From a virus (lineage: Duplodnaviria; Heunggongvirae; Uroviricota; Caudoviricetes): a stretch of 34,652 nt of DNA. The notes beneath the pieces were generated by a model, which was not told the origin of the DNA, did no database searches, and saw nothing but the letters and a program-made list of their open reading frames with translations. Position numbers and translations under genes: made by a program. Positions 8,561-30,763 of the stretch are shown piece after piece. Each line of letters begins with the position of its first letter. Within the stretch, counting starts at the first letter, position 1. Location: the IMG/VR virus record IMGVR_UViG_2541047785_000009; one strand, written 5' to 3'.

Positions 8561-9781
8561 ATGATTGATTTCATAACTACTAATACAGGGATTGTATTGA
8601 AATATGTTCCAGAAACAGCAGGTACATCTTGGGTTTGGAATGAATTAAAAACTCATTCAACTGTAACAATTTCTAAAGTTTTTTATTTTAATATTAGCGA
8701 TCTGCTCAATCCTCCGTCACCAAATCAAGATTTTGATAGTTATTTTTATGAGTTTCAGTTTGGAACTTTTAGTGGTGATTATATTGTTATACCAAGTTAT
8801 ATTTTAAATATTCAAAATGATTTATATATAAGTAAAGATATCAATCTTAGTAGGAGCGTCTTTGCTGCAGAGCGTAATATTTCTATTTTTGGTCGACTCT
8901 CGCGAATATTGAATCACAGCAATCCAATTTATATTGGCGGGGATTCTGCGGAGGCAATACCTTCTAATGTTTTTAGTGAGTTATTAAGCAAATTTCCTAA
9001 CTCGTACGAAGTAGATAAATATGCCGATGCTAGAGTACATACGATTCTTGAGCAATATTTGGAAGGCATGAAAGATGCCAGAGGCCTCTACGAAACATAT
9101 CTCAATAAAATAGAACCAATTAGAAAAAGTAATCTCGACTTAACAACTATCAAAGAATTAGAAATAGAAAAATACACTTTAATTAGAGATACCATTGAGA
9201 ATGCTTTAAGTACGAAACAGCACTGGTCCGAAAAAGATTGGCAAAAATTGATGGTGCAATTCCTTCTTCTTTTATTTCCAAAGTATATTCATATTATTGA
9301 AAACATTACCATCCATGATTACTACAGCATCCCAGGCGAGAAAAAAGATCGATACATAGATATAGGCTTGGTTGATTCTAATGGTAATTTAGATATTATC
9401 GAAGTTAAAAAGCCATTTGACGACAAGATCTTGCGCAGGACAAAGTATAGAGGAAATAGCATACCAACGTCTGAGCTAAGCGGTGGTATCATGCAAGCTG
9501 AAAAATATCTCTTCCATTTATCAAAATGGGGAACAAAAGGTGAAGACAACCTTACAAAAAAATATGCAAGTGAACTACCCTCTGGTATGAGCATTCATAT
9601 TTCTAACCCCAAGGCTATCATCATAGTTGGACGTGACCAAATTGGTAATGGAAATATGACAGAAAATCAAAAACTTGATTTCGAAATTATCAAGCGGAAG
9701 TATACCAATATGATGGACATCATTACCTACGATGACCTATTGAGACGGCTTAACCGTACAATTTCAGCACTTAAAAAGTAA
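8561..9781 (+). CDS. Cargo gene in Z/fun slot: 406-aa putative PD-(D/E)xK-family nuclease (restriction-endonuclease-like C-terminal domain); candidate anti-phage defence protein
   Basis: AT-rich ORF on the opposite strand to the flanking tail genes; RBS GGAGAGAG 5 nt before the ATG; C-terminal motif RYIDIGLVDSNGNLDIIEVKKP (D267, D272, E281-x-K283) followed by QAEKY (Q312, Y316), matching the hhhD...hhhExK plus QxxxY pattern of PD-(D/E)xK nucleases such as NucS/Hjc and Shedu DUF4263; N-terminal 250 aa has no recognisable motif. Confidence 0.8.
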   Translation: MIDFITTNTGIVLKYVPETAGTSWVWNELKTHSTVTISKVFYFNISDLLNPPSPNQDFDSYFYEFQFGTFSGDYIVIPSYILNIQNDLYISKDINLSRSVFAAERNISIFGRLSRILNHSNPIYIGGDSAEAIPSNVFSELLSKFPNSYEVDKYADARVHTILEQYLEGMKDARGLYETYLNKIEPIRKSNLDLTTIKELEIEKYTLIRDTIENALSTKQHWSEKDWQKLMVQFLLLLFPKYIHIIENITIHDYYSIPGEKKDRYIDIGLVDSNGNLDIIEVKKPFDDKILRRTKYRGNSIPTSELSGGIMQAEKYLFHLSKWGTKGEDNLTKKYASELPSGMSIHISNPKAIIIVGRDQIGNGNMTENQKLDFEIIKRKYTNMMDIITYDDLLRRLNRTISALKK

Positions 9782-15207: not shown

Positions 15208-15993
15208 ATGTTCAGTGATAATGTGACTAATGCGTGGTGGTTTATCTCTTTGTATCTATTTTTATTAATAGCATTAACATTTGTTACCTTTGGTAAAAGT
15301 AATCTTATGAGGTTTATTGCACATCATTTCAATCTTGAGTATTCAGACAGAAAGTTAAAAATGCTCGACAAAAAATGGCGCGACATTCAACTATTTAAAA
15401 TAATTAACGGAATCAATGTATCAGGCATCGAAGATGTGAGAATGATACAGCAGGGGCTGATTGATGGAAAACTAAAAACATCGTATTTTTTCCTTACTCG
15501 CATCTGGGGTGACATAACAAAACCACCACACATAATTAAAACAATAATTGTAATTCTGGCCAGTATTTTTTACATTCTCCTCGCATGTTACATACACAAC
15601 GAACAATCCGTTATAGTAAGGGATGCCATAGGCATACCATATAAAAACATGATGTACTATGTTTATAGTGACAAAGTTCTTTTATCCTTCAAAAATAAAG
15701 CAGTTGAATTTAATAAAACTTATAGCCTTGCCGATTGCAAGAGACTGCAAAACGTATTTATAAAAGACACACTTCCTGAAATCGCCTGCAATAAGCTCTT
15801 ACAGCTAAACGAGGAGGACTCCGAATGGTTAAGTCAGGAGATTAAAGATAATAACAGTCACAAAAAAGCATTATTAATACTATCCCTCGTCTATTTCACT
15901 TCAGGTCTGGTTATATTCCTGTCATATACAAAATTCTTTTACGCCAATAAGAAGGTTTTAGAATACAAAGCATCAAATAAAAATCACTCATAA
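15208..15993 (+). CDS. Cargo gene in V-S (orf30) slot: 261-aa predicted integral membrane protein with 3 TM helices, unknown function
   Basis: AT-rich ORF on the opposite strand to the late genes; RBS GAGGAGAG before the ATG at 15208; hydrophobic segments at about aa 9-29, 116-140 and 232-251; no enzymatic motif recognised. Confidence 0.75.
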   Translation: MFSDNVTNAWWFISLYLFLLIALTFVTFGKSNLMRFIAHHFNLEYSDRKLKMLDKKWRDIQLFKIINGINVSGIEDVRMIQQGLIDGKLKTSYFFLTRIWGDITKPPHIIKTIIVILASIFYILLACYIHNEQSVIVRDAIGIPYKNMMYYVYSDKVLLSFKNKAVEFNKTYSLADCKRLQNVFIKDTLPEIACNKLLQLNEEDSEWLSQEIKDNNSHKKALLILSLVYFTSGLVIFLSYTKFFYANKKVLEYKASNKNHS

Positions 15994-22438: not shown

Positions 22439-24211
22439 ATGACCATCACCACAGACACCACTCTTTTACACGACCCGCGTCGTCAGGCGGCGCTGCTGTA
22501 CTGGCAGGGATTTTCCGTGCCGCAGATTGCCGCCATGTTGCAGATGAAACGCCCGACGGTGCAGAGCTGGAAACAGCGCGACGGCTGGGACAGCGTTGCC
22601 CCCATCAGCCGTGTCGAAATGAGTCTGGAAGCGCGGCTGACCCAGCTCATCATCAAACCGCAGAAAACCGGCGGTGACTTCAAGGAAATTGACCTGCTGG
22701 GACGCCAGATTGAACGACTGGCACGGGTAAACCGTTACAGTCAGACCGGCAACGAGGCAGACCTTAATCCGAACGTCGCTAACCGCAACAAAGGCGGGCG
22801 TCGCAAACCGAAAAAAAATTTTTTCAGTGACGAGGCCATCGAAAAGCTGGAGCAGATTTTCTTTGAGCAGTCTTTCGACTATCAGTTGCACTGGTATCGC
22901 GCCGGGCTTGAGCACCGCATCCGCGATATCCTGAAATCCCGCCAGATTGGCGCGACGTTTTATTTTTCCCGCGAGGCGCTGCTGCGCGCCCTGAAAACCG
23001 GCCATAACCAGATTTTTCTGTCGGCCAGTAAAACGCAGGCGTATGTGTTCCGCGAATACATCATCGCCTTTGCCCGTCTGGTTGACGTTGACCTGACCGG
23101 TGACCCGATTGTCCTGGGCAATAACGGCGCAAAACTGATTTTTCTCGGCACCAACTCCAACACCGCGCAGAGCCATAACGGCGACCTGTACGTCGACGAG
23201 ATTTTCTGGATCCCGAATTTTCAGGTACTGCGTAAGGTGGCATCAGGTATGGCCTCACAGAGCCACCTGCGCTCGACCTATTTCTCCACCCCGTCCACGC
23301 TGGCGCACGACGCCTACCCATTCTGGTCGGGTGAACTGTTCAACCGGGGACGCGCCAGCGCCGCCGAACACGTGGAAATCGACGTCAGTCATAACGCCCT
23401 TGCCGGGGGGCTTCTCTGTGCGGACGGCCAGTGGCGGCAGATTGTCACCATTGAGGACGCCCTGAAAGGTGGCTGCACGCTGTTCGACATTGAGCAGCTC
23501 AAACGTGAAAACAGCGCCGACGATTTTAAAAACCTGTTCATGTGTGAATTTGTTGACGACAAGGCGTCGGTGTTCCCGTTCGAGGAGCTGCAACGCTGCA
23601 TGGTCGACACGCTGGAAGAATGGGAAGACTATGCGCCGTTTGCCGCCAATCCGTTCGGCTCCCGCCCGGTATGGATTGGTTACGACCCGTCACACCGTGG
23701 CGACAGCGCCGGATGCGTGGTGCTGGCACCGCCGGTGGTGGCCGGAGGTAAATTCAGAATACTTGAGCGTCACCAGTGGAAAGGCATGGACTTTGCCACT
23801 CAGGCGGAATCCATCCGCAAACTCACCGAAAAATACAACGTCGAATACATCGGTATTGATGCCACCGGCCTTGGTGTCGGCGTGTTCCAGCTCGTGCGCT
23901 CGTTCTATCCCGCCGCGCGCGATATCCGCTACACGCCGGAAATGAAGACCGCAATGGTGCTCAAGGCAAAAGACGTTATCCGCCGTGGCTGTCTGGAATA
24001 TGACGTCAGCGCCACCGACATCACCAGCTCGTTTATGGCTATCCGCAAGACCATGACCAGCAGCGGACGCAGCGCCACCTATGAGGCCAGCCGCAGCGAG
24101 GAAGCCAGCCACGCCGACCTCGCCTGGGCGACCATGCACGCCCTGTTAAATGAGCCACTCACCGCCGGTATCAGCACCCCGCTGACATCCACCATTCTGG
24201 AGTTTTACTGA
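22439..24211 (+). CDS. P: Terminase large (ATPase) subunit P (590 aa)
   Basis: Track ORF 22409..24211; P2 gpP-like MTITTDTTLLHDPRRQAALLYWQGF... starts at ATG 22439 with GAGG upstream. Confidence 0.9.
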   Translation: MTITTDTTLLHDPRRQAALLYWQGFSVPQIAAMLQMKRPTVQSWKQRDGWDSVAPISRVEMSLEARLTQLIIKPQKTGGDFKEIDLLGRQIERLARVNRYSQTGNEADLNPNVANRNKGGRRKPKKNFFSDEAIEKLEQIFFEQSFDYQLHWYRAGLEHRIRDILKSRQIGATFYFSREALLRALKTGHNQIFLSASKTQAYVFREYIIAFARLVDVDLTGDPIVLGNNGAKLIFLGTNSNTAQSHNGDLYVDEIFWIPNFQVLRKVASGMASQSHLRSTYFSTPSTLAHDAYPFWSGELFNRGRASAAEHVEIDVSHNALAGGLLCADGQWRQIVTIEDALKGGCTLFDIEQLKRENSADDFKNLFMCEFVDDKASVFPFEELQRCMVDTLEEWEDYAPFAANPFGSRPVWIGYDPSHRGDSAGCVVLAPPVVAGGKFRILERHQWKGMDFATQAESIRKLTEKYNVEYIGIDATGLGVGVFQLVRSFYPAARDIRYTPEMKTAMVLKAKDVIRRGCLEYDVSATDITSSFMAIRKTMTSSGRSATYEASRSEEASHADLAWATMHALLNEPLTAGISTPLTSTILEFY

Positions 24212-25245
24212 TGAGCAAGAAAAAAGGGAAAACACCGCAACCTGCGGCAAAAAAAATGACCGCCAGCGCCCCGAAAATGGAGGCATTCACCTTTGGTGAA
24301 CCGGTGCCGGTACTCGACCGCCGTGACATTCTGGATTACGTCGAGTGCATCAGTAACGGCAGATGGTATGAGCCACCGGTCAGCTTTACCGGTCTGGCAA
24401 AAAGCCTGCGTGCTGCCGTACATCACAGCTCACCGATTTACGTCAAACGTAATATTCTGGCTTCAACGTTTATTCCGCACCTGTGGCTTTCCCAGCAGGA
24501 TTTCAGCCGCTTTGTGCTGGATTTTCTGGTGTTCGGTAATGCGTTTCTGGAAAAGCGTTACAGCACCACCGGTAAGGTCATCAGACTGGAAACCTCACCG
24601 GCAAAATATACCCGCCGTGGCGTGGAGGAGGATGTTTACTGGTGGGTGCCGTCCTTCAACGAGCCGACAGCCTTCGCGCCCGGCTCCGTGTTTCACCTGC
24701 TGGAGCCGGATATTAATCAGGAGCTGTACGGCCTGCCGGAATATCTCAGCGCCCTTAATTCTGCCTGGCTGAATGAGTCGGCCACGCTGTTCCGCCGCAA
24801 GTATTACGAAAACGGCGCTCATGCCGGATATATCATGTACGTCACCGATGCCGTGCAGGATCGCAACGATATCGAAATGCTTCGCGAAAACATGGTCAAG
24901 TCGAAAGGCCGCAACAACTTTAAAAATCTGTTTCTCTATGCCCCGCAGGGGAAAGCCGACGGCATTAAAATTATCCCGCTCAGTGAAGTGGCAACGAAGG
25001 ACGATTTTTTTAATATCAAAAAAGCCAGCGCCGCTGACCTGCTGGACGCGCACCGCATCCCCTTTCAGTTGATGGGCGGCAAGCCGGAGAACGTCGGGTC
25101 GCTGGGTGATATTGAGAAAGTGGCAAAGGTCTTTGTCCGCAATGAGCTTATCCCGCTACAGGACAGGATCCGCGAGATAAACGGCTGGCTCGGTCAGGAG
25201 GTCATCCGCTTTAAAAACTACTCACTGGACACTGACAACGGCTGA
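24211..25245 (+). CDS. Q: Portal protein Q
   Basis: 344-aa ORF, P2 gpQ length; ATG overlaps the P stop (ATGA). Confidence 0.92.
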   Translation: MSKKKGKTPQPAAKKMTASAPKMEAFTFGEPVPVLDRRDILDYVECISNGRWYEPPVSFTGLAKSLRAAVHHSSPIYVKRNILASTFIPHLWLSQQDFSRFVLDFLVFGNAFLEKRYSTTGKVIRLETSPAKYTRRGVEEDVYWWVPSFNEPTAFAPGSVFHLLEPDINQELYGLPEYLSALNSAWLNESATLFRRKYYENGAHAGYIMYVTDAVQDRNDIEMLRENMVKSKGRNNFKNLFLYAPQGKADGIKIIPLSEVATKDDFFNIKKASAADLLDAHRIPFQLMGGKPENVGSLGDIEKVAKVFVRNELIPLQDRIREINGWLGQEVIRFKNYSLDTDNG

Positions 25246-25272: not shown

Positions 25273-25414
25273 ACACCCCGTCATCACGCGCTCACACGCT
25301 CACCACCGCACAAAACACCCCGCAGACACACCAACGCCTCAACGGGCAGACTAAGCGCCTTCACGACGCGCTCAGACGCTGAAAAAATAAAATCAGCACC
25401 ACCGCCAGCGCGCA

Positions 25415-25433
25415 GTGCTTTCCCCGCCTCGCC
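25415..25433. other. cos site (19-nt cohesive-end sequence)
   Basis: GTGCTTTCCCCGCCTCGCC is the reverse complement of the P2 cohesive end GGCGAGGCGGGGAAAGCAC as I recall it; located right of Q as in P2. Confidence 0.75.
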
Positions 25434-25763
25434 CGCCCGCTTCATGGGGCGGTTTTAATGCAGTTGCATGAGTACGTTGAATCCTCGCTAGCTGTGACGT
25501 AAAGCAATGAGGACGCATAACTTTGACACATGCAAAACCATGCACCTGATACATGCATAGTTATTACTTTGTAAAAACATAAAAAAAGGAAATCCCATGA
25601 ACAAAAATCAAACTATTAATAAAAATTTTTATATCTCTTAGAACAAAAGATTTTGCTTGAACAAAGTAAACTTCTGAGGTAGATCTTTATCGTTTAGCAA
25701 AATAATTCATGTTAAACAGCTTAAATATTTATACAATATCATTGGCAATGATGAGGTTTTAAA

Positions 25764-27983
25764 ATGGAACTTAAATTAAAGAATATAACCAGCTATAAGA
25801 AAGATAGCTTCACGACTCTTAATCTCTCAAAAAAAATTAATATACTTTATGGTCACAACGGTTGTGGAAAATCAACCATATCTAATTATTTCTATAATCC
25901 AAATAACACGGACTACAAAGAATGCGAATGTCCTTTCATAGATACTTTTCGCCTATTGGTTTATAATACTAAGTTTGTTGAGGATAATTTTTATAATGCA
26001 AAAGAGCAAAAAGGAGTATTCACTTTAAGTAAGGAAAATGCTGACATTGAAAAAGAATTGTTGGAAAAAGAAGCTATAAGACAAGACCTACTTACAAAAT
26101 ACAAAGATAAAAAAAACGTTATTGAACGTTTAATTAAAGATAAAAACAATAAAGAAAATGAATATATTGATTTAATATGGAATAAAGCAGAACCTTTTAG
26201 ATCATCTGACTTAAAGAACTTGATGAAAGGTCAGTTAGGAAGCAAGAGATCATTTTATGAGCAAGTTAAAAAAGCCCCTCAAACCACTGACGTTAACATC
26301 GAGTCACTTGCTCAAGAATATAGTATTCTTTTAAAGAACAAAGATAAATTCACTGCATCAATTACACCTTTAGAAAAATATATCATTTCAGAAAAAGATA
26401 AAGAATCTTTATCCACTCCGATTATAGACTCAAGTAATAGCTATTTGTCAGAAACAATTAAACAACTTCAAAACCTTGACTGGGTGAAAAAAGGGAAGGA
26501 ATTATATTTAAATGGCACATGTTGCCCATTCTGCCAAGAAGACACTATTAAAGACAAATTTTTAGAAGCAATTGAATCTATCTTTGATGATAGCTACTCC
26601 AAGAAAGTTGACCAAATACGCATTATCAGATCGTCTTATGAATCCGCTACCATAGATAATTTAAGAAAAATAAAACAAGAGATTTCATCTTGTGAATTAA
26701 TCACCTCAAAAGAAAAAGATATAACATCATCTCATATAGCGTTATTAGAGGAAATAGCAAACAAAAACTTAAAATTGATGTTAGATAAAATCAATAACCC
26801 ATCTATATCTATTATTTTGGAATCCAATAGCGACCTTGAAGCAAAGGTAGTTGATAATATAACAGAGTACAACAATAGAATTAAAGAAATAAATATTAAA
26901 GTCAAACAATTTAAGGATAGTGAAAAGTCTATACGTTACAAAATATGGGGAGCAATAAGAGAATTATGCAACGCTGAGTTTGAAGCTTTCTCAAAATATG
27001 AGAATGACTATAAAATCATTTATGAACAATATCAACTTGAATTAAATACCATAAAAGAACAAGGAGATAACAATAGCAAAAAGATCAAAGAGCTACGCGA
27101 TCAAATATCTAACATTGATGCAACCATAGATTCTATAAATCAACGTCTAAAATTATTAGGAATTTATGGTTTTAGCATAAAAAAACACACTGAGAGCAAT
27201 GATAAATATATTATATCACGTTCTGAAAACACAACAGATAAAGATGTATACAGATCTCTTAGCGAGGGTGAAAAAACTTTAATTACCTTTCTCTACTTTC
27301 TGGAATGCTGTAAAGGTAAGACAGATAAGAATGATACGGATATGCGAGATGTATTTATCGTTATTGATGATCCAATATCCAGCCTCTCTCAAAATTATGT
27401 GTACGATATTGCTTCAATAATTCACCATGAAATAATCAACAATAACAAAGCAGTAAAGAAAACATTAATACTCACACATAACCTTTATTTCTTTCATGAA
27501 CTTATCAAATTAGCTCCTAGAAGCAAAGAAGATAGAACATTCAAGCGTGATTATTATCTTGGACGAGTAACAAAAAATGAATATAGCATAATTACAGAAA
27601 TAGAGAAAAAGAGCATTCAGAATGAATACCAGTCCCTATGGCAAGTATTAAAAGATGCGAAGGATGGAAGGGTAAATAAAGTTATAATACCTAACATCAT
27701 GAGAAATATACTGGAATACTACTTCGCATTTGTTCATAGAACGGATGCATTACAGACAGAGTTAAATAAACTTGCTAGCGATGATAAGAATAATGATTTT
27801 AGAGCATTTTATAGATACATTAATAGAGGTTCCCATTCAGATGCAGTTAATATCACAGACATGGGAGATATATCTCCAGAGAAATATATGGAGCAACTAA
27901 AAACCATTTTTCGTATGACTGGTGATGAAAAACATTATTTGAAAATGATGGACGAAGAGGAAGAGGAAACCGTTACCGCTTAG
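25764..27983 (+). CDS. Cargo gene in old/tin slot: 739-aa ABC/Rad50-like ATPase with coiled-coil CxxC zinc hook and C-terminal putative anticodon-nuclease domain (RloC/PrrC-like architecture)
   Basis: Strongly AT-rich ORF; RBS GAGG 7 nt before the ATG; Walker A G30-HN-G-C-GKST; long Lys/Glu-rich coiled-coil; C254-P-F-C257 hook; ABC signature L499-SEGEK; Walker B V530-FIVIDDP; H-loop T571-H572; C-terminal R647-x3-E651 and H691, resembling the PrrC/RloC Arg-Glu-His triad. Confidence 0.8.
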   Translation: MELKLKNITSYKKDSFTTLNLSKKINILYGHNGCGKSTISNYFYNPNNTDYKECECPFIDTFRLLVYNTKFVEDNFYNAKEQKGVFTLSKENADIEKELLEKEAIRQDLLTKYKDKKNVIERLIKDKNNKENEYIDLIWNKAEPFRSSDLKNLMKGQLGSKRSFYEQVKKAPQTTDVNIESLAQEYSILLKNKDKFTASITPLEKYIISEKDKESLSTPIIDSSNSYLSETIKQLQNLDWVKKGKELYLNGTCCPFCQEDTIKDKFLEAIESIFDDSYSKKVDQIRIIRSSYESATIDNLRKIKQEISSCELITSKEKDITSSHIALLEEIANKNLKLMLDKINNPSISIILESNSDLEAKVVDNITEYNNRIKEINIKVKQFKDSEKSIRYKIWGAIRELCNAEFEAFSKYENDYKIIYEQYQLELNTIKEQGDNNSKKIKELRDQISNIDATIDSINQRLKLLGIYGFSIKKHTESNDKYIISRSENTTDKDVYRSLSEGEKTLITFLYFLECCKGKTDKNDTDMRDVFIVIDDPISSLSQNYVYDIASIIHHEIINNNKAVKKTLILTHNLYFFHELIKLAPRSKEDRTFKRDYYLGRVTKNEYSIITEIEKKSIQNEYQSLWQVLKDAKDGRVNKVIIPNIMRNILEYYFAFVHRTDALQTELNKLASDDKNNDFRAFYRYINRGSHSDAVNITDMGDISPEKYMEQLKTIFRMTGDEKHYLKMMDEEEEETVTA

Positions 27984-28230
27984 GCCGCATATCATCGGGT
28001 TGGGTAAGAACGACGGTGTTCACACACCGTCTCCCACTTACCGAAACGATAGCGATTGTACTGACGTACTTTCACTAACTTTAACATGAGATTATCTCCA
28101 TGCCAGCACTATTGTTGCCAATAGCAGCCTTTACACCCTTTGTATAAAGCTAATACCAAGAGCAATGCAAGGATACCCCAAGCGGTAACTGGCGTGGATT
28201 CTAGAGCAGCCTAACTAAAAAATCAAAGCA

Positions 28231-30498
28231 TTAATTAAATCCCGGCCACTCATCATTTACCGGATACCTGAAGTTTACCCCCTCATAATTTACGGTTGCC
28301 CCACGCGCCAGCGCCTCAAGCTCCCATCGCTGAGGCCTGATACCGTTCTGACCAAGGTCAACGCGGATACGGGGGATTTGCATTCGTTCCGACCGGGTCA
28401 GTCTGGCCGAAGGCGCAATTTCATGCGGTTTTAACGGGCTTCCGTTTCTTTGCTGACGATTTGGTGTTCTCAGTTCGTGTTTTAATGCCCCCCTGAGCGC
28501 CCTCACGACATCCGGGTCATTCCATTCGATCACACCGTGATCGACCAGATTAAGCACGGCTGCGGCATGTTCAGAAGGTGTGGGAGCCGTTAACGAAGTA
28601 TCACTGCCGGTGAACTTTCCACAGTTATTGACAGGACTCCGAGGCGCGGCGATGCCGCTTTTTAAAGTCAAAGGCTCAACGACCGGCACTTTCGGAACAA
28701 TGCGCCAGTCCGTCGTTCTGGTGATATGAATATGACGCGCGCCGAGATGCGGCGCGTAAATGCCGACCACTCTCTCGACTTCTTCCTCGTACTCGTTAAC
28801 GTCATCCGACGGGCTACGGGCGACCCTGACAGTCTGACAATCGCGCGGGACATTTGCCCCGCCCTGCGCGCTGATATACAACGCAAAATCACCACTGTCT
28901 GCAGCGGCGCGTGCAGCCTCGACGCGCTCGTCAAACTCATCAGCAATGCTGACGCCACGAGGCAATTTGCGTAGTTCACGGTAAGCCCCCATTGTCGGCA
29001 GACCAACCGTTTTAAATTGCGGAATGCGCCACGTTGACGCCCATGCGGTAACAGCCGCAGCTGTGTCTTTCAGCGGCCTACCGGTATCATTATCGAGCTG
29101 ACCATCCAGTGCATAGCCGTCGATGTTTTTTGAGATGTATTTCGCGATATATCCCGCAGCACCGCCCCGGTTAAGGTGTTTTGCCTGAAAACGGTTTCGC
29201 GCGGCTCCTCTTTCGTCGCCATCCTCTTTGAGCGCATAGCGACGCATGATTTCAATAATCTGGTTACGCTGGCGTGGATTACAAAAAAGCATCATATGCC
29301 AGTGCGGCGTTCCGTCGTGGTGTGGTTCAACAACACGCAAACCGTAGGCCTGTAAATCATTATCCTTGAATGCCGTGCGCATCAGGCTCCAGATACGGCA
29401 GAGATAACGCTGCGCATCCTTTGGATTAAATGCCTCATCGTTCCAGCCGTGATTAAGCTGAACGGTTTTACTTTCGCCTTTTCCGACCTGACGTGTCGGG
29501 TGATACTTTGACGGCGCGGTCAGCGTGATAAACATCCCCACATCACCCTCTGCGGCGGCGTAACGCTCAATACCGGCAATGGTGTTCATCAGCTCCATCC
29601 GGCGAATTTCAGGATTAGAAATACTGCCCATCACCTTACTGATAAGGTCGATGCGCTCGCCGGTTTCCCTGTTTTCAAGGTCACACGATTTAAGAAATTC
29701 CAGATTTGCCTGGCGGCGCGCACGCACATCACGAATGGCGTGTTTACTGGCATAAGGAGAACGGTCTTTATTGACCTCCCCGACAGCTATCAGTAACGCC
29801 TCATGCCAGCGCATACGCTGGCCTTTAAGCTGATGAGTCCACCACTCATCGTTAAACAGGCGGGCAATGGCAGAATATGCCTGCCTCGTGGTCATCTGTC
29901 CTTTACGGTATTTTTTCCAGTAGAGCGGGGAAATATTGAAAGCACGTGCAGCGCCAGCAACATGACCATACAGGTGAGCCTGCGCCTCATCCGTAAACAG
30001 CGATTCTTTTTCACCATGCGCATCAACCCAGGCATCGCAGAGTTCCTCATACATTATGAAAAGCTGCGATGAGATACGGGCGGCAAACTTTTTCAGCTCC
30101 TTGTCATTCATTCCAGGCAGGCGCGCATAGTGGTCACGCTCTGCCAGAAACAGCAACGACGCGTCGGTGTTCATTTCATGGCGCTGATTAACGCGCTCAA
30201 TGCGCGGCCATAAACGACGCTGAAAAGTGGATGTGAGGAAATAAAACCCGTGCACCGGGCTTTTATTGCGCCGGATGTAGTCATAGCGTGAAGTAAACAG
30301 CGAGCGCAAAAAGTAAGGCAGGCGATTAATCGTGGATAAAACACCTTGCACCTGACGCATCTCGTCACGTGTAAGGGGTCTTTCGCGCCCGACAGCCTCG
30401 CGTGGCGCGTTCCATGCATAAGCACCGGTAAACGTCTTACCGGTGCCTGCGGCAAATGCTGACGGAGGGACAAAACGCCCGGAGGCTTTAACGGCCAT
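28231..30498 (-). CDS. A: Replication initiation protein A (rolling-circle nickase)
   Basis: Track ORF 28231..30540 begins at a TTG; the P2 gpA-like N-terminus MAVKASGRFVPPSAFAAGTGK starts at ATG 30498 with AGAGG about 12 nt upstream; start is uncertain by 42 nt. Confidence 0.85.
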   Translation of the reverse strand: MAVKASGRFVPPSAFAAGTGKTFTGAYAWNAPREAVGRERPLTRDEMRQVQGVLSTINRLPYFLRSLFTSRYDYIRRNKSPVHGFYFLTSTFQRRLWPRIERVNQRHEMNTDASLLFLAERDHYARLPGMNDKELKKFAARISSQLFIMYEELCDAWVDAHGEKESLFTDEAQAHLYGHVAGAARAFNISPLYWKKYRKGQMTTRQAYSAIARLFNDEWWTHQLKGQRMRWHEALLIAVGEVNKDRSPYASKHAIRDVRARRQANLEFLKSCDLENRETGERIDLISKVMGSISNPEIRRMELMNTIAGIERYAAAEGDVGMFITLTAPSKYHPTRQVGKGESKTVQLNHGWNDEAFNPKDAQRYLCRIWSLMRTAFKDNDLQAYGLRVVEPHHDGTPHWHMMLFCNPRQRNQIIEIMRRYALKEDGDERGAARNRFQAKHLNRGGAAGYIAKYISKNIDGYALDGQLDNDTGRPLKDTAAAVTAWASTWRIPQFKTVGLPTMGAYRELRKLPRGVSIADEFDERVEAARAAADSGDFALYISAQGGANVPRDCQTVRVARSPSDDVNEYEEEVERVVGIYAPHLGARHIHITRTTDWRIVPKVPVVEPLTLKSGIAAPRSPVNNCGKFTGSDTSLTAPTPSEHAAAVLNLVDHGVIEWNDPDVVRALRGALKHELRTPNRQQRNGSPLKPHEIAPSARLTRSERMQIPRIRVDLGQNGIRPQRWELEALARGATVNYEGVNFRYPVNDEWPGFN

Positions 30499-30763
30499 AT
30501 GAGCCAAAAGCCTCTGAACAACGCTTGCTGAGTTGCTCAACCTGCGCGTTTAAATCAGCAAAAGACTTTGCGCTTCCGGTCAGAATATCGTGATGCATCA
30601 GGCCGGAAACGAGCTGGCTTAATTTCGGGTAATAACCAACCACCGCCAGCCATTCCTGACCGGCGTTTTTACCGCTTTCCGCTCTCTTTTTCTCGTGGAG
30701 AATAAACTGAAAGCTGTCACTGGTAACGACATAACGTTCGCCAATTTCAATACGAATACTCAT
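30488..30763 (-). CDS. Early-operon hypothetical protein (P2 orf83 position)
   Basis: 91-aa ORF, ATG at 30763, overlaps the A start; conserved position in P2 early operon. Confidence 0.7.
   Translation of the reverse strand: MSIRIEIGERYVVTSDSFQFILHEKKRAESGKNAGQEWLAVVGYYPKLSQLVSGLMHHDILTGSAKSFADLNAQVEQLSKRCSEAFGSYGR

What the first reader, a model, noticed from the sequence alone, without database searches (positions are those of the whole stretch)
25434..28230. old/tin hotspot replaced by a 739-aa RloC/PrrC-like ABC ATPase with zinc hook and putative anticodon-nuclease domain
Between cos and the 3' end of gene A, where P2 carries old, tin and orf91, none of those genes is present. A single strongly AT-rich gene (25764..27983) occupies the slot. 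Its product has a complete ABC/Rad50-type ATPase split by a long coiled-coil bearing CPFC (C254-C257), plus a C-terminal domain with R647-x3-E651 and H691, echoing the Arg-Glu-His catalytic triad of PrrC/RloC. RloC-type proteins are thought to be suicidal translation-disabling defence enzymes. A phage-borne copy in the P2 defence slot would be an abortive-infection or superinfection-exclusion module. The divergent C-terminus could also indicate a different effector on the same ATPase scaffold.
Basis: partly seen in the sequence, partly recalled or inferred. Interest (0 to 1): 0.8.

Follow-up and report, generated by a model that had tools for sequence, protein, structure and literature searches.

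The report
Prophage RloC-type tRNA-cutting defence gene
A P2-like prophage carries, in its usual defence-gene slot, an RloC-type suicide enzyme predicted to cut tRNA; this kind was already catalogued there, but beside it sits a conserved, never-annotated 31-residue gene with a structured RNA leader that appears undescribed.

Summary
A 739-aa ORF (25764..27983, +; 30% GC against about 53% in the flanks) fills the P2 cos–gene A slot. These are Walker A K36, the C254-P-F-C257 hook, LSEGE, D535-D536, H572, R647-N648-x2-E651 and R684-x2-N687-x3-H691. The C-terminal domain alone aligns in register with the PrrC nuclease domain and models as a HEPN-like helical bundle. The ATPase head resembles Rad50. 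The protein meets the founding sequence definition of RloC and is 65% identical to the APEC O1 hotspot protein, very likely the one the RloC discoverers called "E. coli APECO1 RloC". It is not new as a kind: Rousset et al. 2022 list "AAA_13, RloC-like" as P2-hotspot system #5, and PADLOC calls it PDC-S06. tRNA cleavage and phage defence remain untested. The slot is not a single gene. A 31-aa basic ORF (27992..28087, −) has its own promoter-like site and a covariation-supported two-hairpin leader. It accompanies the gene across genera in three orientations and also neighbours other defence modules. It is unannotated, and I found no description of it.

The parts
25415..25433 (-). P2-type cos 19-nt cohesive-end sequence (left boundary of the hotspot)
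   Evidence: Exact match to GGCGAGGCGGGGAAAGCAC, once in the window and 0 times in 100 shuffles. The cos sequence itself is from my own knowledge of P2.
25434..25763 (+). AT-rich upstream region of the rloC-like gene, with a weak sigma-70-like site at 25713-25742 and GAGG before the ATG
   Evidence: GC falls from 0.50-0.60 to 0.25-0.31 from about 25450. The promoter-like match scores 9/12, no better than chance overall. Sequence.
25764..27983 (+). rloC-like gene, 739 aa: ABC ATPase head split by a helical/zinc-hook insertion, plus a C-terminal HEPN-type nuclease domain
25851..25877 (+). Walker A / P-loop (G30-H-N-G-C-G-K36-S-T38)
   Evidence: G30, N32, G35, K36 and T38 are invariant in A1. Positions.
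26034..27155 (+). Helical (coiled-coil type) insertion, aa 91-464, between the two ATPase lobes
   Evidence: The AF2 model has long helices 91-141 and 403-448 plus shorter ones. The best Foldseek matches are Rad50, SMC and LmuB heads with coiled coils.
26523..26534 (+). C254-P-F-C257 zinc-hook motif in a loop at the apex of the insertion
   Evidence: C254, F256 and C257 are invariant, with W240 and G244 upstream. In the model the motif lies in a loop between H238-248 and H264-273.
27258..27272 (+). ABC signature motif L499-S-E-G-E503
   Evidence: Invariant in A1.
27360..27383 (+). Walker B / D-loop (V-I-D535-D536-P-I-S-S540)
   Evidence: D535, D536, P537 and S540 are invariant. They correspond to EcoPrrC D215, D216 and S219.
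27477..27479 (+). H-loop histidine H572
   Evidence: Invariant. It corresponds to EcoPrrC H251.
27606..27953 (+). C-terminal all-helical HEPN-type nuclease domain (about aa 615-730)
27702..27716 (+). R647-N648-I-L-E651, equivalent to PrrC R320-N321-x2-E324
   Evidence: N644, R647 and E651 are invariant. Register. Essentiality in PrrC and GkaRloC.
27813..27836 (+). R684-Y-I-N687-R-G-S690-H691, equivalent to PrrC R349-x2-N352-x3-H356 (the HEPN Rx6H motif)
   Evidence: S690 and H691 are invariant. Register. PrrC mutagenesis.
27992..28087 (-). Unannotated 31-aa basic ORF MLKLVKVRQYNRYRFGKWETVCEHRRSYPTR (pI 10.6), convergent, with its stop 8 nt from the rloC-like stop
   Evidence: It is conserved in Serratia, Vibrio, Pseudomonas, a Bacillota MAG, plasmids and viral contigs. 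Codon-position entropy is 0.62/0.48/1.40, and this is the only frame open in all 23 sequences. It matches phrog_21154 of unknown function.
28096..28099 (-). GGAG Shine-Dalgarno of the small ORF
   Evidence: GGAG lies 7-9 nt before the ATG in nearly all 23 loci. Coordinates.
28088..28204 (-). Structured 5' leader of the small ORF, with hairpin H1 at 28127-28150 and hairpin H2 at 28109-28124
   Evidence: RNAalifold finds 12 of 14 pairs with double changes. 92% of cells are paired against 77.6% in shuffles, 0/500 shuffles reach the observed covariation, and slid controls give 37-52%. Model R1 scores 79.9 bits, E 5e-17, and this is the only copy in the window. No Rfam family reaches its cutoff.
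28198..28226 (-). Promoter-like site for the small ORF (-35 TTGATT, 17 nt, -10 TAGAAT)
   Evidence: A TAGAAT-like -10 recurs at the same alignment position in the Vibrio, Photobacterium and Ureibacillus copies. This is a consensus match only.

Best explanation
The 739-aa gene is a prophage-borne member of the RloC family. It combines a Rad50-like ABC ATPase, whose two lobes are separated by a helical insertion tipped with a CPFC zinc hook, with a C-terminal HEPN-type anticodon nuclease. By analogy with G. kaustophilus and A. baylyi RloC, the nuclease is held silent by the hook and ATPase region. It is switched on when the ATPase meets DNA ends or breaks (inferred step), for example during a superinfecting phage's attack on host DNA or its own replication. 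It then cuts tRNA in the anticodon loop, stops translation and aborts the infection, which protects the lysogen population and the resident P2-like prophage. It occupies the cos-to-gene-A hotspot in place of old and tin. What is shown here: the architecture, the conserved catalytic residues, the homology to PrrC and RloC, the hotspot position, horizontal acquisition, and solo mobility among prophages, plasmids and islands. What is inferred: tRNA cleavage, the trigger, and the defence phenotype. A conserved 31-aa basic protein gene, with its own promoter-like site and a structured RNA leader, lies immediately 3' of the gene. It probably belongs to the same mobile module, in a role that is not established.
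For: AAA_13 matches full length at E 2.8e-102. PDC-S06 matches at E 5.6e-253, and the PrrC profile at 3.4e-14 over aa 454-734. All ATPase, hook and nuclease motifs are invariant in 28 homologues. R-x3-E-x39-SH fits the founding RloC definition. The register matches PrrC's essential R320/N321/E324/R349/N352/H356. The landmarks are collinear with GkaRloC K44/C291/D572/R692/E696/H737. The protein is 65% identical to the APEC O1 hotspot protein, and Klaiman et al. name an 'E. coli APECO1 RloC'. The AF2 model has pLDDT 82.7 with a Rad50-like head and a HEPN-like C-domain. The gene sits between cos and gene A, a validated defence hotspot. Rousset Table S5B lists system #5 as 'AAA_13 ... RloC-like' with 420 occurrences. 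The gene is solo in Serratia, Vibrio and plasmid contexts. Repeated inactivation by IS elements or frameshift fits a costly, toxic gene.
Confidence: 0.7

Rival explanations
1. It is a two-part system. The conserved 31-34-aa basic protein, or its structured leader RNA, is a required regulator of the RloC-like nuclease. One version is a labile antitoxin whose loss on phage-induced shut-off releases the nuclease. Another is a sensor or activator. On this reading the 'single-gene' description (PDC-S06, RloC) is incomplete for this clade.
For: The small ORF is present next to the gene in the window, in three E. coli alleles, in Serratia, Vibrio, Photobacterium, Pseudomonas, Pectobacterium, Aliivibrio, Endozoicomonas and a Ureibacillus MAG, on plasmids, and in 5 of 5 viral contigs. 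It keeps an ATG, a GGAG and a coding substitution pattern. It is more conserved (57-84% identity) than the big protein (35-70%). The linkage survives three different orientations. The leader RNA shows covariation.
Against: The small ORF is absent within 2.5 kb of several close homologues (L010, L012-L014, L016, L025, L026) and of all 30-34% relatives. It is also found beside unrelated defence modules, namely PDC-M12, a type VI retron and DUF3800, and on Xanthomonas plasmids. G. kaustophilus RloC is regulated internally, without a partner. No interaction test was possible.
Confidence: 0.3
2. It is an ABC-HEPN RNase, but with a different cut or target from RloC. It might make a single PrrC-like nick, target another tRNA set, or cut mRNA or rRNA. 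In that case 'wobble-nucleotide excision' would not apply.
For: The clade is only 18-28% identical to canonical-length RloC-like proteins. PrrC's LARP recognition motif is absent. The His295 equivalent appears to be replaced by Trp. The name 'wobble nucleotide-excising tRNase' is also applied to PrrC fragments, so it carries no specificity.
Against: All catalytic residues shared by PrrC and RloC are retained, with the same spacing. Both characterised relatives are anticodon nucleases.
Confidence: 0.15
3. It is a Rad50/SbcC-like DNA repair or recombination ATPase used by the phage, not a nuclease toxin.
For: The best structural matches of the head are Mre11-Rad50 complexes, and there is a CPxC hook.
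Against: There is no Mre11/SbcD-like partner in the slot. The insertion is far shorter than in Rad50. An invariant HEPN-type catalytic set is fused at the C-terminus. The gene is variable cargo in a defence hotspot, present in only about 1-2% of E. coli genomes.
Confidence: 0.03
4. It has no defence role. It is a selfish addiction or stabilisation toxin, or a decaying passenger gene.
For: There are independent disruptions: an IS21-family insertion in the E. coli type strain, a frameshift plus IS481, and an IS5. Truncated forms are abundant (P0042, P0046).
Against: The 90% cluster has 417 members, mostly full length. All catalytic residues are conserved across phyla. The gene sits in a hotspot where many cargoes have been validated as defences.
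Confidence: 0.07

Closest known systems
RloC (Geobacillus kaustophilus and Acinetobacter baylyi; Davidov & Kaufmann 2008; Klaiman et al. 2012, 2014)
   Same: The order of parts is the same: Walker A, then a helical insertion with a CxxC zinc hook, then signature, Walker B, H-loop, and finally R-x3-E-x(36-52)-S-H. The landmark spacing is nearly identical, with hook to Walker B at 281 residues in both. It is a solo gene not linked to type I R-M.
   Different: It is shorter (739 vs 804 aa). It is only distantly related in sequence to canonical-length RloC-like proteins (18-24% identity to P0087-P0090). The His295(PrrC)-equivalent appears to be Trp. It is prophage-borne. It is accompanied by a small ORF that has not been reported for RloC. 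No biochemistry exists for it.
'E. coli APECO1 RloC' / APECO1_4465-type prophage ABC-HEPN (Klaiman 2012; Anantharaman 2013), also P2 hotspot system #5 'RloC-like' (Rousset 2022) and PADLOC PDC-S06
   Same: It is the same family and the same P2 cos-A slot. It is 65% identical over its full length to the APEC O1 protein WP_000423308.1. It matches PDC-S06 HMM PDLC04886 at E 5.6e-253.
   Different: It is a distinct allele; the 90% cluster has 417 members in E. coli and Salmonella. I inferred the mapping of the old locus tag APECO1_4465 to this gene and did not verify it. None of these sources mentions the small ORF or its leader.
PrrC anticodon nuclease (E. coli CT196)
   Same: It has the same ABC motifs and nuclease residues, R320/N321/E324/R349/N352/S355/H356, in the same register. 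Both fall in Pfam AAA_13.
   Different: PrrC has no coiled-coil or zinc-hook insertion. It is embedded in a type Ic R-M locus that silences it. It has the LARP motif and His315. None of these is present here.
P2 Old (ABC ATPase + TOPRIM)
   Same: It occupies the same hotspot in P2. It is also an ABC-ATPase sensor fused to a nuclease, and a 2026 preprint reports it as an abortive tRNase responding to DNA defects.
   Different: The effector fold is different (TOPRIM vs HEPN), Old has no zinc hook, and there is no detectable sequence relationship beyond the P-loop.
Rad50/SbcC and Lamassu LmuB
   Same: These share the ABC head with a coiled-coil insertion and CxxC hook, and they give the best structural matches. 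LmuB homology searches in the literature recover RloC.
   Different: The insertion here is much shorter. There is no Mre11/SbcD or LmuA/LmuC partner. The nuclease is fused in cis and is an RNase-type HEPN domain.

Membership tests
RloC (Davidov & Kaufmann 2008 definition) | N-terminal ABC-ATPase motifs (Walker A, signature, Walker B/D-loop, H-loop) | tested here: met
   G30..K36-T38, L499SEGE503, D535-D536-P-x-S-S540 and H572 are all invariant in 28 homologues.
RloC (Davidov & Kaufmann 2008 definition) | Coiled-coil/zinc-hook (CxxC) insertion between Walker A and the signature motif, Rad50-like | tested here: met
   C254-P-F-C257 is invariant. The AF2 model shows a helical insertion at aa 91-464 with the hook in a loop. 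The Foldseek top hits are Rad50. Zinc binding itself was not tested.
RloC (Davidov & Kaufmann 2008 definition) | C-terminal Arg-X3-Glu-X36-52-His triad, with Ser often preceding His | tested here: met
   R647-x3-E651-x39-S690-H691, invariant in the alignments. The definition is quoted.
RloC (Davidov & Kaufmann 2008 definition) | Rarely linked to a type I/III R-M locus (unlike PrrC) | tested here: met
   No R-M genes are in the slot or in the Serratia, Vibrio or plasmid contexts examined.
RloC (Davidov & Kaufmann 2008 definition) | Significant direct sequence similarity to an experimentally characterised RloC (GkaRloC YP_146738 or A. baylyi RloC) | not tested
   Neither sequence was obtainable with the tools. 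The evidence is indirect: collinear landmarks and 65% identity to the APEC O1 protein that the same laboratory calls RloC.
RloC (Davidov & Kaufmann 2008 definition) | Anticodon-nuclease activity that excises the wobble nucleotide, governed by Zn2+, the hook and a DNA-dependent ATPase | not testable with these tools
   This needs biochemistry or tRNA sequencing.
PrrC | ABC ATPase without an insertion (about 400 aa), embedded in a type Ic R-M (hsd) locus | tested here: not met
   The protein is 739 aa with a 370-aa insertion, and there are no hsd genes nearby.
PrrC | Nuclease-domain residues R320, N321, E324, R349, N352, H356 | tested here: met
   hhalign of the domain-only profiles puts R647/N648/E651/R684/N687/H691 on these positions. 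The PrrC fragments were verified by their landmarks.
PrrC | LARP motif (KYGDSNKSFSY), His295 and His315 | tested here: not met
   There is no LARP-like sequence. The His315 position is I/P, and the His295 position appears to be W626. This is by-eye alignment outside the hhalign block.
HEPN superfamily (nuclease domain) | All-alpha bundle carrying an Rx4-6H motif | tested here: met
PADLOC PDC-S06 / Pfam AAA_13 | Full-length match above threshold to the family HMM | tested here: met
   PDLC04886 at E 5.6e-253 over residues 2-732 of the protein (profile positions 4-725 of 727). PF13166 at 344 bits against a cutoff of 36.
Rad50/SbcC DNA-repair ATPases | Long coiled coil, a Mre11/SbcD nuclease partner, and no C-terminal RNase domain | tested here: not met
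   There is no partner gene, the insertion is short, and a HEPN domain is fused.
Lamassu (LmuB) | LmuB SMC-like ATPase encoded with LmuA effector (and LmuC) | tested here: not met
   Only weak P-loop-level LmuB hits (E 3.5e-6, residues 1-41), and no LmuA or LmuC neighbour.

The most novel reading that the evidence does not exclude
The cos-A slot holds a two-gene module, not one gene. The second gene is a never-annotated 31-34-aa, highly basic protein. It has its own promoter and a covariation-supported two-hairpin 5' leader that lies next to the ribosome-binding site. On this reading it is a dedicated control element, such as a labile antitoxin, translational sensor or activator, for this clade of RloC-like anticodon nucleases. 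Because it also sits beside PDC-M12/AbiL-like, type VI retron and DUF3800 modules, it could be a more general small regulator of abortive-infection toxins carried on mobile elements.
Probability: 0.3. Interest if true: 0.7.

Novelty: new member of a known kind. Interest (0 to 1): 0.45.

Why it matters
RloC is listed in every defence-system catalogue, yet in the papers I could search its anti-phage activity has never been shown and its natural trigger and tRNA targets are unknown. An E. coli, P2-borne allele sits in a hotspot where neighbouring cargoes have been validated, and in a host with standard phage panels and tRNA-seq methods. That makes these questions directly testable. The slot normally holds Old, recently reported to be an ABC-ATPase-controlled tRNase, so phages may swap different 'ABC sensor + tRNA nuclease' solutions at one locus. 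The conserved small ORF with a structured leader matters for two reasons. It is invisible to current annotation (0 of 94 E. coli copies are annotated). If it controls the nuclease, 'single-gene' definitions in PADLOC and DefenseFinder, and cloning designs that stop at the stop codon, would miss a component.

Tried and rejected
(1) Sequence search of the PDB with the protein and with a profile found no PrrC or RloC structure. It returned only P-loop-level hits to Rad50, AriA and SMC.

(2) The C-terminal 149 aa alone against PADLOC hit only PDC-S06, not PrrC. The whole-protein PrrC hit is therefore carried largely by the ABC C-lobe. That is why I built a domain-only profile comparison.

(3) NCBIfam has no model for either the protein or the peptide.

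(4) The JGI name 'wobble nucleotide-excising tRNase' on homologue P0071 looked like direct support for RloC. The same name is given to PrrC fragments, so I dropped it as discriminating evidence.

(5) The supplement of Anantharaman 2013 holds no sequences. I could not obtain G. kaustophilus RloC. The genome-contig scan returned 80 other species.

(6) Rfam gave a weak RT-6 RNA hit (19 bits against a 46.7 cutoff) on hairpin 1. It was not found in the retron-linked copy L089, so I treat it as chance.

(7) I looked for an anti-Shine-Dalgarno long-range helix. The single-sequence MFE pairs UCCA with UGGA, but an alignment-wide search found no third covarying helix, and the single-sequence z-score is only -1.21.

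(8) I considered that the peptide's Cys22 and His24 might cap the zinc hook. Cys is replaced by Arg in the sister E. coli and Serratia copies, so this is unlikely.

(9) I considered the peptide as an obligatory RloC partner and rejected that strong form.

(10) The search for homologous proteins refuses queries under 40 aa.

Full report
**1. The observation**

The window is a P2-like prophage read in the orientation P, Q, cos, cargo, then gene A on the opposite strand.
- The Q-like portal gene (24211..25245, +; Phage_portal) and the A-like replication gene (28231..30540, -; Phage_GPA, E 4e-123) flank the region.
- The 19-nt P2 cos sequence occurs exactly once, at 25415..25433.
- Between them lies one long ORF, 25764..27983 (+), 739 aa.
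- Its GC content is 0.30 (GC3 0.27), against 0.53 for both neighbours and 0.50 for the window. The drop starts near 25450 and ends near 28000.
- No ORF resembling old, tin or orf91 is present.

**2. What the protein is**

Pfam AAA_13 matches end to end (E 2.8e-102). The PADLOC candidate family PDC-S06 matches end to end (E 5.6e-253), and the PrrC profile matches aa 454-734 (E 3.4e-14). PHROG 2801 (unknown function) also matches. NCBIfam has nothing.

The large protein database holds an identical protein in a 90% cluster of 417 members from E. coli and Salmonella. All are named only 'AAA family ATPase'.

I aligned 28 homologues reaching down to 18% identity. Only 33 columns are invariant, and they are exactly the functional ones:
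- G30/N32/G35/K36/T38 (Walker A)
- W240/G244 and C254/F256/C257 (hook)
- L499-S-E-G-E503 (signature)
- D535/D536/P537/S540 (Walker B and D-loop)
- H572 (H-loop)
- N644/R647/E651 and S690/H691

An AlphaFold2 model (mean pLDDT 82.7) shows a two-lobed beta/alpha head, made of residues 2-67 and 470-612. The lobes are separated by a helical insertion (91-464) with the CPFC in a loop. An all-helical C-terminal domain follows. Foldseek against the PDB returns Mre11-Rad50 complexes first, then cohesin and condensin heads, AriA, Lamassu LmuB and retron PtuA. No PrrC or RloC structure turns up in the PDB.

**3. The decisive test for the C-terminus**

The C-terminal 149 aa alone do not reach the PADLOC PrrC profile, so I needed real PrrC sequences. 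Meineke & Shuman (PMC3025547) quote motif fragments and list the essential EcoPrrC nuclease residues: H295, H297, K299, H315, R320, N321, E324, R349, N352 and H356. A query built from those fragments retrieved PrrC C-terminal pieces. Their landmarks fall at exactly the published numbering.

I then ran a profile-profile comparison restricted to the nuclease domains on both sides, with no ABC motifs. It aligns 76 columns with P = 7.8e-4. It pairs R647/N648/E651 with R320/N321/E324, and R684/N687/S690/H691 with R349/N352/S355/H356. The statistics are modest, but the register reproduces six independently defined catalytic positions.

**4. Family membership**

Davidov & Kaufmann defined RloC by three features: PrrC-like ABC motifs, a coiled-coil/CxxC insertion, and Arg-X3-Glu-X36-52-His with Ser often before His. 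All three are met here (the gap is X39).

The GkaRloC landmarks K44, C291, D572, R692, E696 and H737 are collinear with K36, C254, D535, R647, E651 and H691. The hook to Walker B distance is 281 in both.

Klaiman et al. 2012 explicitly mention an 'E. coli APECO1 RloC'. Anantharaman et al. 2013 describe APECO1_4465-type ABC-HEPN proteins in prophages and propose that they exclude other phages. APEC O1 carries a 738-aa AAA ATPase between its P2 portal and replication genes, and it is 65% identical to ours over the full length.

PrrC membership fails on architecture: no insertion is allowed, an hsd locus is required, and LARP and His315 are absent. Rad50/SbcC and Lamassu fail on partners and on the fused RNase.

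Two caveats apply. I could not align directly to GkaRloC. The His295(PrrC) equivalent seems to be Trp626 in this clade, while canonical-length relatives keep His; this is a by-eye alignment.

**5. Prior knowledge**

The cos-A locus is an established defence hotspot. The representative sequence there is a homologue of ours. It is not among the systems they cloned. A 2025 preprint notes an E. coli AAA ATPase predicted as PDC-S06.

In the literature I could search, RloC is still 'not tested' against phages. Its antiviral role rests on biochemistry in G. kaustophilus and DNA-break activation in A. baylyi.

The locus as a whole (25300-28300) occurs at 98-99.6% identity in 32 of 5,426 complete E. 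coli genomes. Relatives also sit on about 299 plasmids, 184 of them conjugative, and in non-prophage islands in Serratia and Vibrio. Several copies are inactivated: IS21 in the E. coli type strain, a frameshift plus IS481, and an IS5.

**6. Mechanism**

*Shown:* the architecture, the conserved catalytic set, horizontal origin, and hotspot position.

*Inferred from characterised relatives:* ATPase heads and zinc hooks hold the HEPN nuclease inactive. DNA-dependent ATP hydrolysis in response to DNA ends or breaks releases it. tRNA anticodon-loop cleavage, possibly wobble excision, then stops translation and aborts infection.

P2 Old, the canonical occupant of this slot, is described in a 2026 preprint as an ABC-ATPase-controlled abortive tRNase. 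This cargo would therefore be a functional analogue with a different nuclease fold.

**7.

The 247 nt between the rloC-like stop and the gene A stop travel with the cargo, not with P2. They are present in 69-94 of 5,426 genomes, against more than 2,000 genomes carrying P2-like sequence.

They contain a minus-strand ORF, 27992..28087, encoding MLKLVKVRQYNRYRFGKWETVCEHRRSYPTR (pI 10.6). A GGAG lies 8 nt upstream of its ATG.

The same 31-34-aa ORF, with ATG and GGAG, is found in many places:
- beside the homologous gene in three E. coli alleles and in Serratia (a non-prophage site)
- in Vibrio, Photobacterium, Neptuniibacter, Pseudomonas, Halopseudomonas, Stutzerimonas, Pectobacterium, Aliivibrio, Endozoicomonas, Celerinatantimonas and Marinobacterium
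- in a Ureibacillus MAG
- on Klebsiella, Enterobacter and Pantoea plasmids
- in 5 of 5 viral contigs that include the gene's 3' end

Three geometries occur: convergent 8-38 nt after the stop, co-directional 149-283 nt downstream, and divergent upstream. That argues against a mere 3'-UTR element.

Across 23 distinct nucleotide sequences, codon-position entropies are 0.62, 0.48 and 1.40. All 30 third positions vary, and only this frame is open in every sequence. Thirteen residues are invariant.

The family matches only phrog_21154 (unknown function). It has no Pfam, NCBIfam or PDB match. It has just 14 representative clusters among 1.84 billion proteins, all 31-96 aa and never fused to another domain. 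It is unannotated in all 94 E. coli copies. No paper in the library holds its sequence.

**8. The leader RNA**

The roughly 100 nt upstream of the small ORF align across genera and form two hairpins. In the window these are H1 at 28127-28150 and H2 at 28109-28124.
- 12 of 14 pairs keep pairing through changes on both sides.
- 92% of cells are paired, against 77.6% in shuffles.
- 0 of 500 shuffles reach the observed covariation.
- Sliding the partners drops pairing to 37-52%.

A covariance model finds one copy in the window (79.9 bits). It finds none in RloC-like loci that lack the peptide. No Rfam family reaches its threshold.

A sigma-70-like site on the minus strand (-35 at 28226-28221, -10 at 28203-28198) precedes the leader. 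A TAGAAT-like -10 recurs at the same place in other genera. These are consensus matches only.

**9. Limits on the small-gene story**

The peptide gene is missing within 2.5 kb of several close homologues and of all 30-34% relatives.

It also lies beside a PDC-M12 (AbiL-like ATPase) pair on a 4.4-kb E. coli plasmid. On an Acinetobacter plasmid it sits between a type VI retron and a DUF3800 gene. It also occurs on Xanthomonas plasmids.

It is therefore a frequent companion of this clade and of other defence cargo, not a proven partner. Its function is open: antitoxin, regulator, sensor, or a marker of a mobile cassette boundary.

**10. Verdict**

The gene is a new allele of an already catalogued kind, prophage RloC-like / PDC-S06, so the finding itself is of modest novelty. 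Interest is raised by two things. First, RloC's defence role is still untested, and this is a tractable E. coli example. Second, there is an apparently undescribed small ORF with a structured leader next to it.

Noticed in passing
window 27992-28226 (minus strand): An unannotated 31-aa basic ORF sits here with GGAG, a two-hairpin covarying 5' leader and a promoter-like site. It is conserved beside RloC-like genes across many genera in three orientations, and it also sits beside PDC-M12, type VI retron and DUF3800 modules. There is no Pfam, NCBIfam, Rfam or PDB match; it matches only phrog_21154 (unknown function).
   Followed up: yes
window 8561-9781 (+): A 406-aa ORF with a Shedu SduA_C domain (PF14082, E 7e-36) lies between tail genes, in the P2 Z/fun slot (hotspot #2). 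This prophage therefore carries a second defence cargo.
   Followed up: partly
window 15208-15993 (+): A 261-aa ORF lies on the strand opposite to the surrounding structural genes. It has no convincing Pfam family (DUF6535 at E 0.0018, below cutoff). It may be further cargo.
   Followed up: partly
L001 (E. coli ATCC 11775, NZ_CP033092.2 1854580-1863791); L100 (NZ_CP027103.1); H219 (NZ_CP146687.1): There are independent inactivations of the homologous gene: an IS21-family ISEc12 insertion in the E. coli type strain, a frameshift with an adjacent IS481, and an IS5 insertion. Truncated forms P0042 and P0046 are abundant (176 and 1244 member sequences). This is consistent with a costly or toxic gene.
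   Followed up: partly
window 27636-27653 (aa W626 region) versus PrrC fragments P0150 etc.: The residue aligned by eye with PrrC His295 (essential in PrrC, reported as conserved in RloC) is Trp in this whole clade ('LW[QK]'). Canonical-length RloC-like proteins P0088-P0090 keep His ('LFHQIHK'). It lies outside the hhalign block, so the equivalence is uncertain.
   Followed up: partly
window 27948-27980 (aa 729-739): There is an acidic C-terminal tail, DEEEEETVTA. The terminal '[VA]TA' is kept in the enterobacterial homologues (P0002, P0010, P0030, P0036, P0039, APEC O1) and is absent from more distant ones. It could be a degron or an autoinhibitory tail. It was not examined.
   Followed up: no
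proteins P0148-P0247: PrrC C-terminal fragments fall in Pfam AAA_13, and JGI labels several of them 'wobble nucleotide-excising tRNase'. That database name therefore does not distinguish RloC from PrrC.
   Followed up: yes
window 27984-28230: No intrinsic terminator is predicted between the convergent rloC-like gene, the small ORF and gene A. Transcripts from the small-ORF promoter, or read-through from gene A, could run antisense into the 3' end of the rloC-like gene.
   Followed up: no
L022 5118-5309 (Pectobacterium); L019 1519-1664 and 5737-5887 (Halopseudomonas): Rfam gathering-level hits lie near RloC-like homologues. In L022 these are isrK and C4 antisense RNA (P1/P7-type immunity RNAs). 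In L019 two radC RNA motifs flank the gene. This suggests other mobile-element contexts for the family.
   Followed up: no
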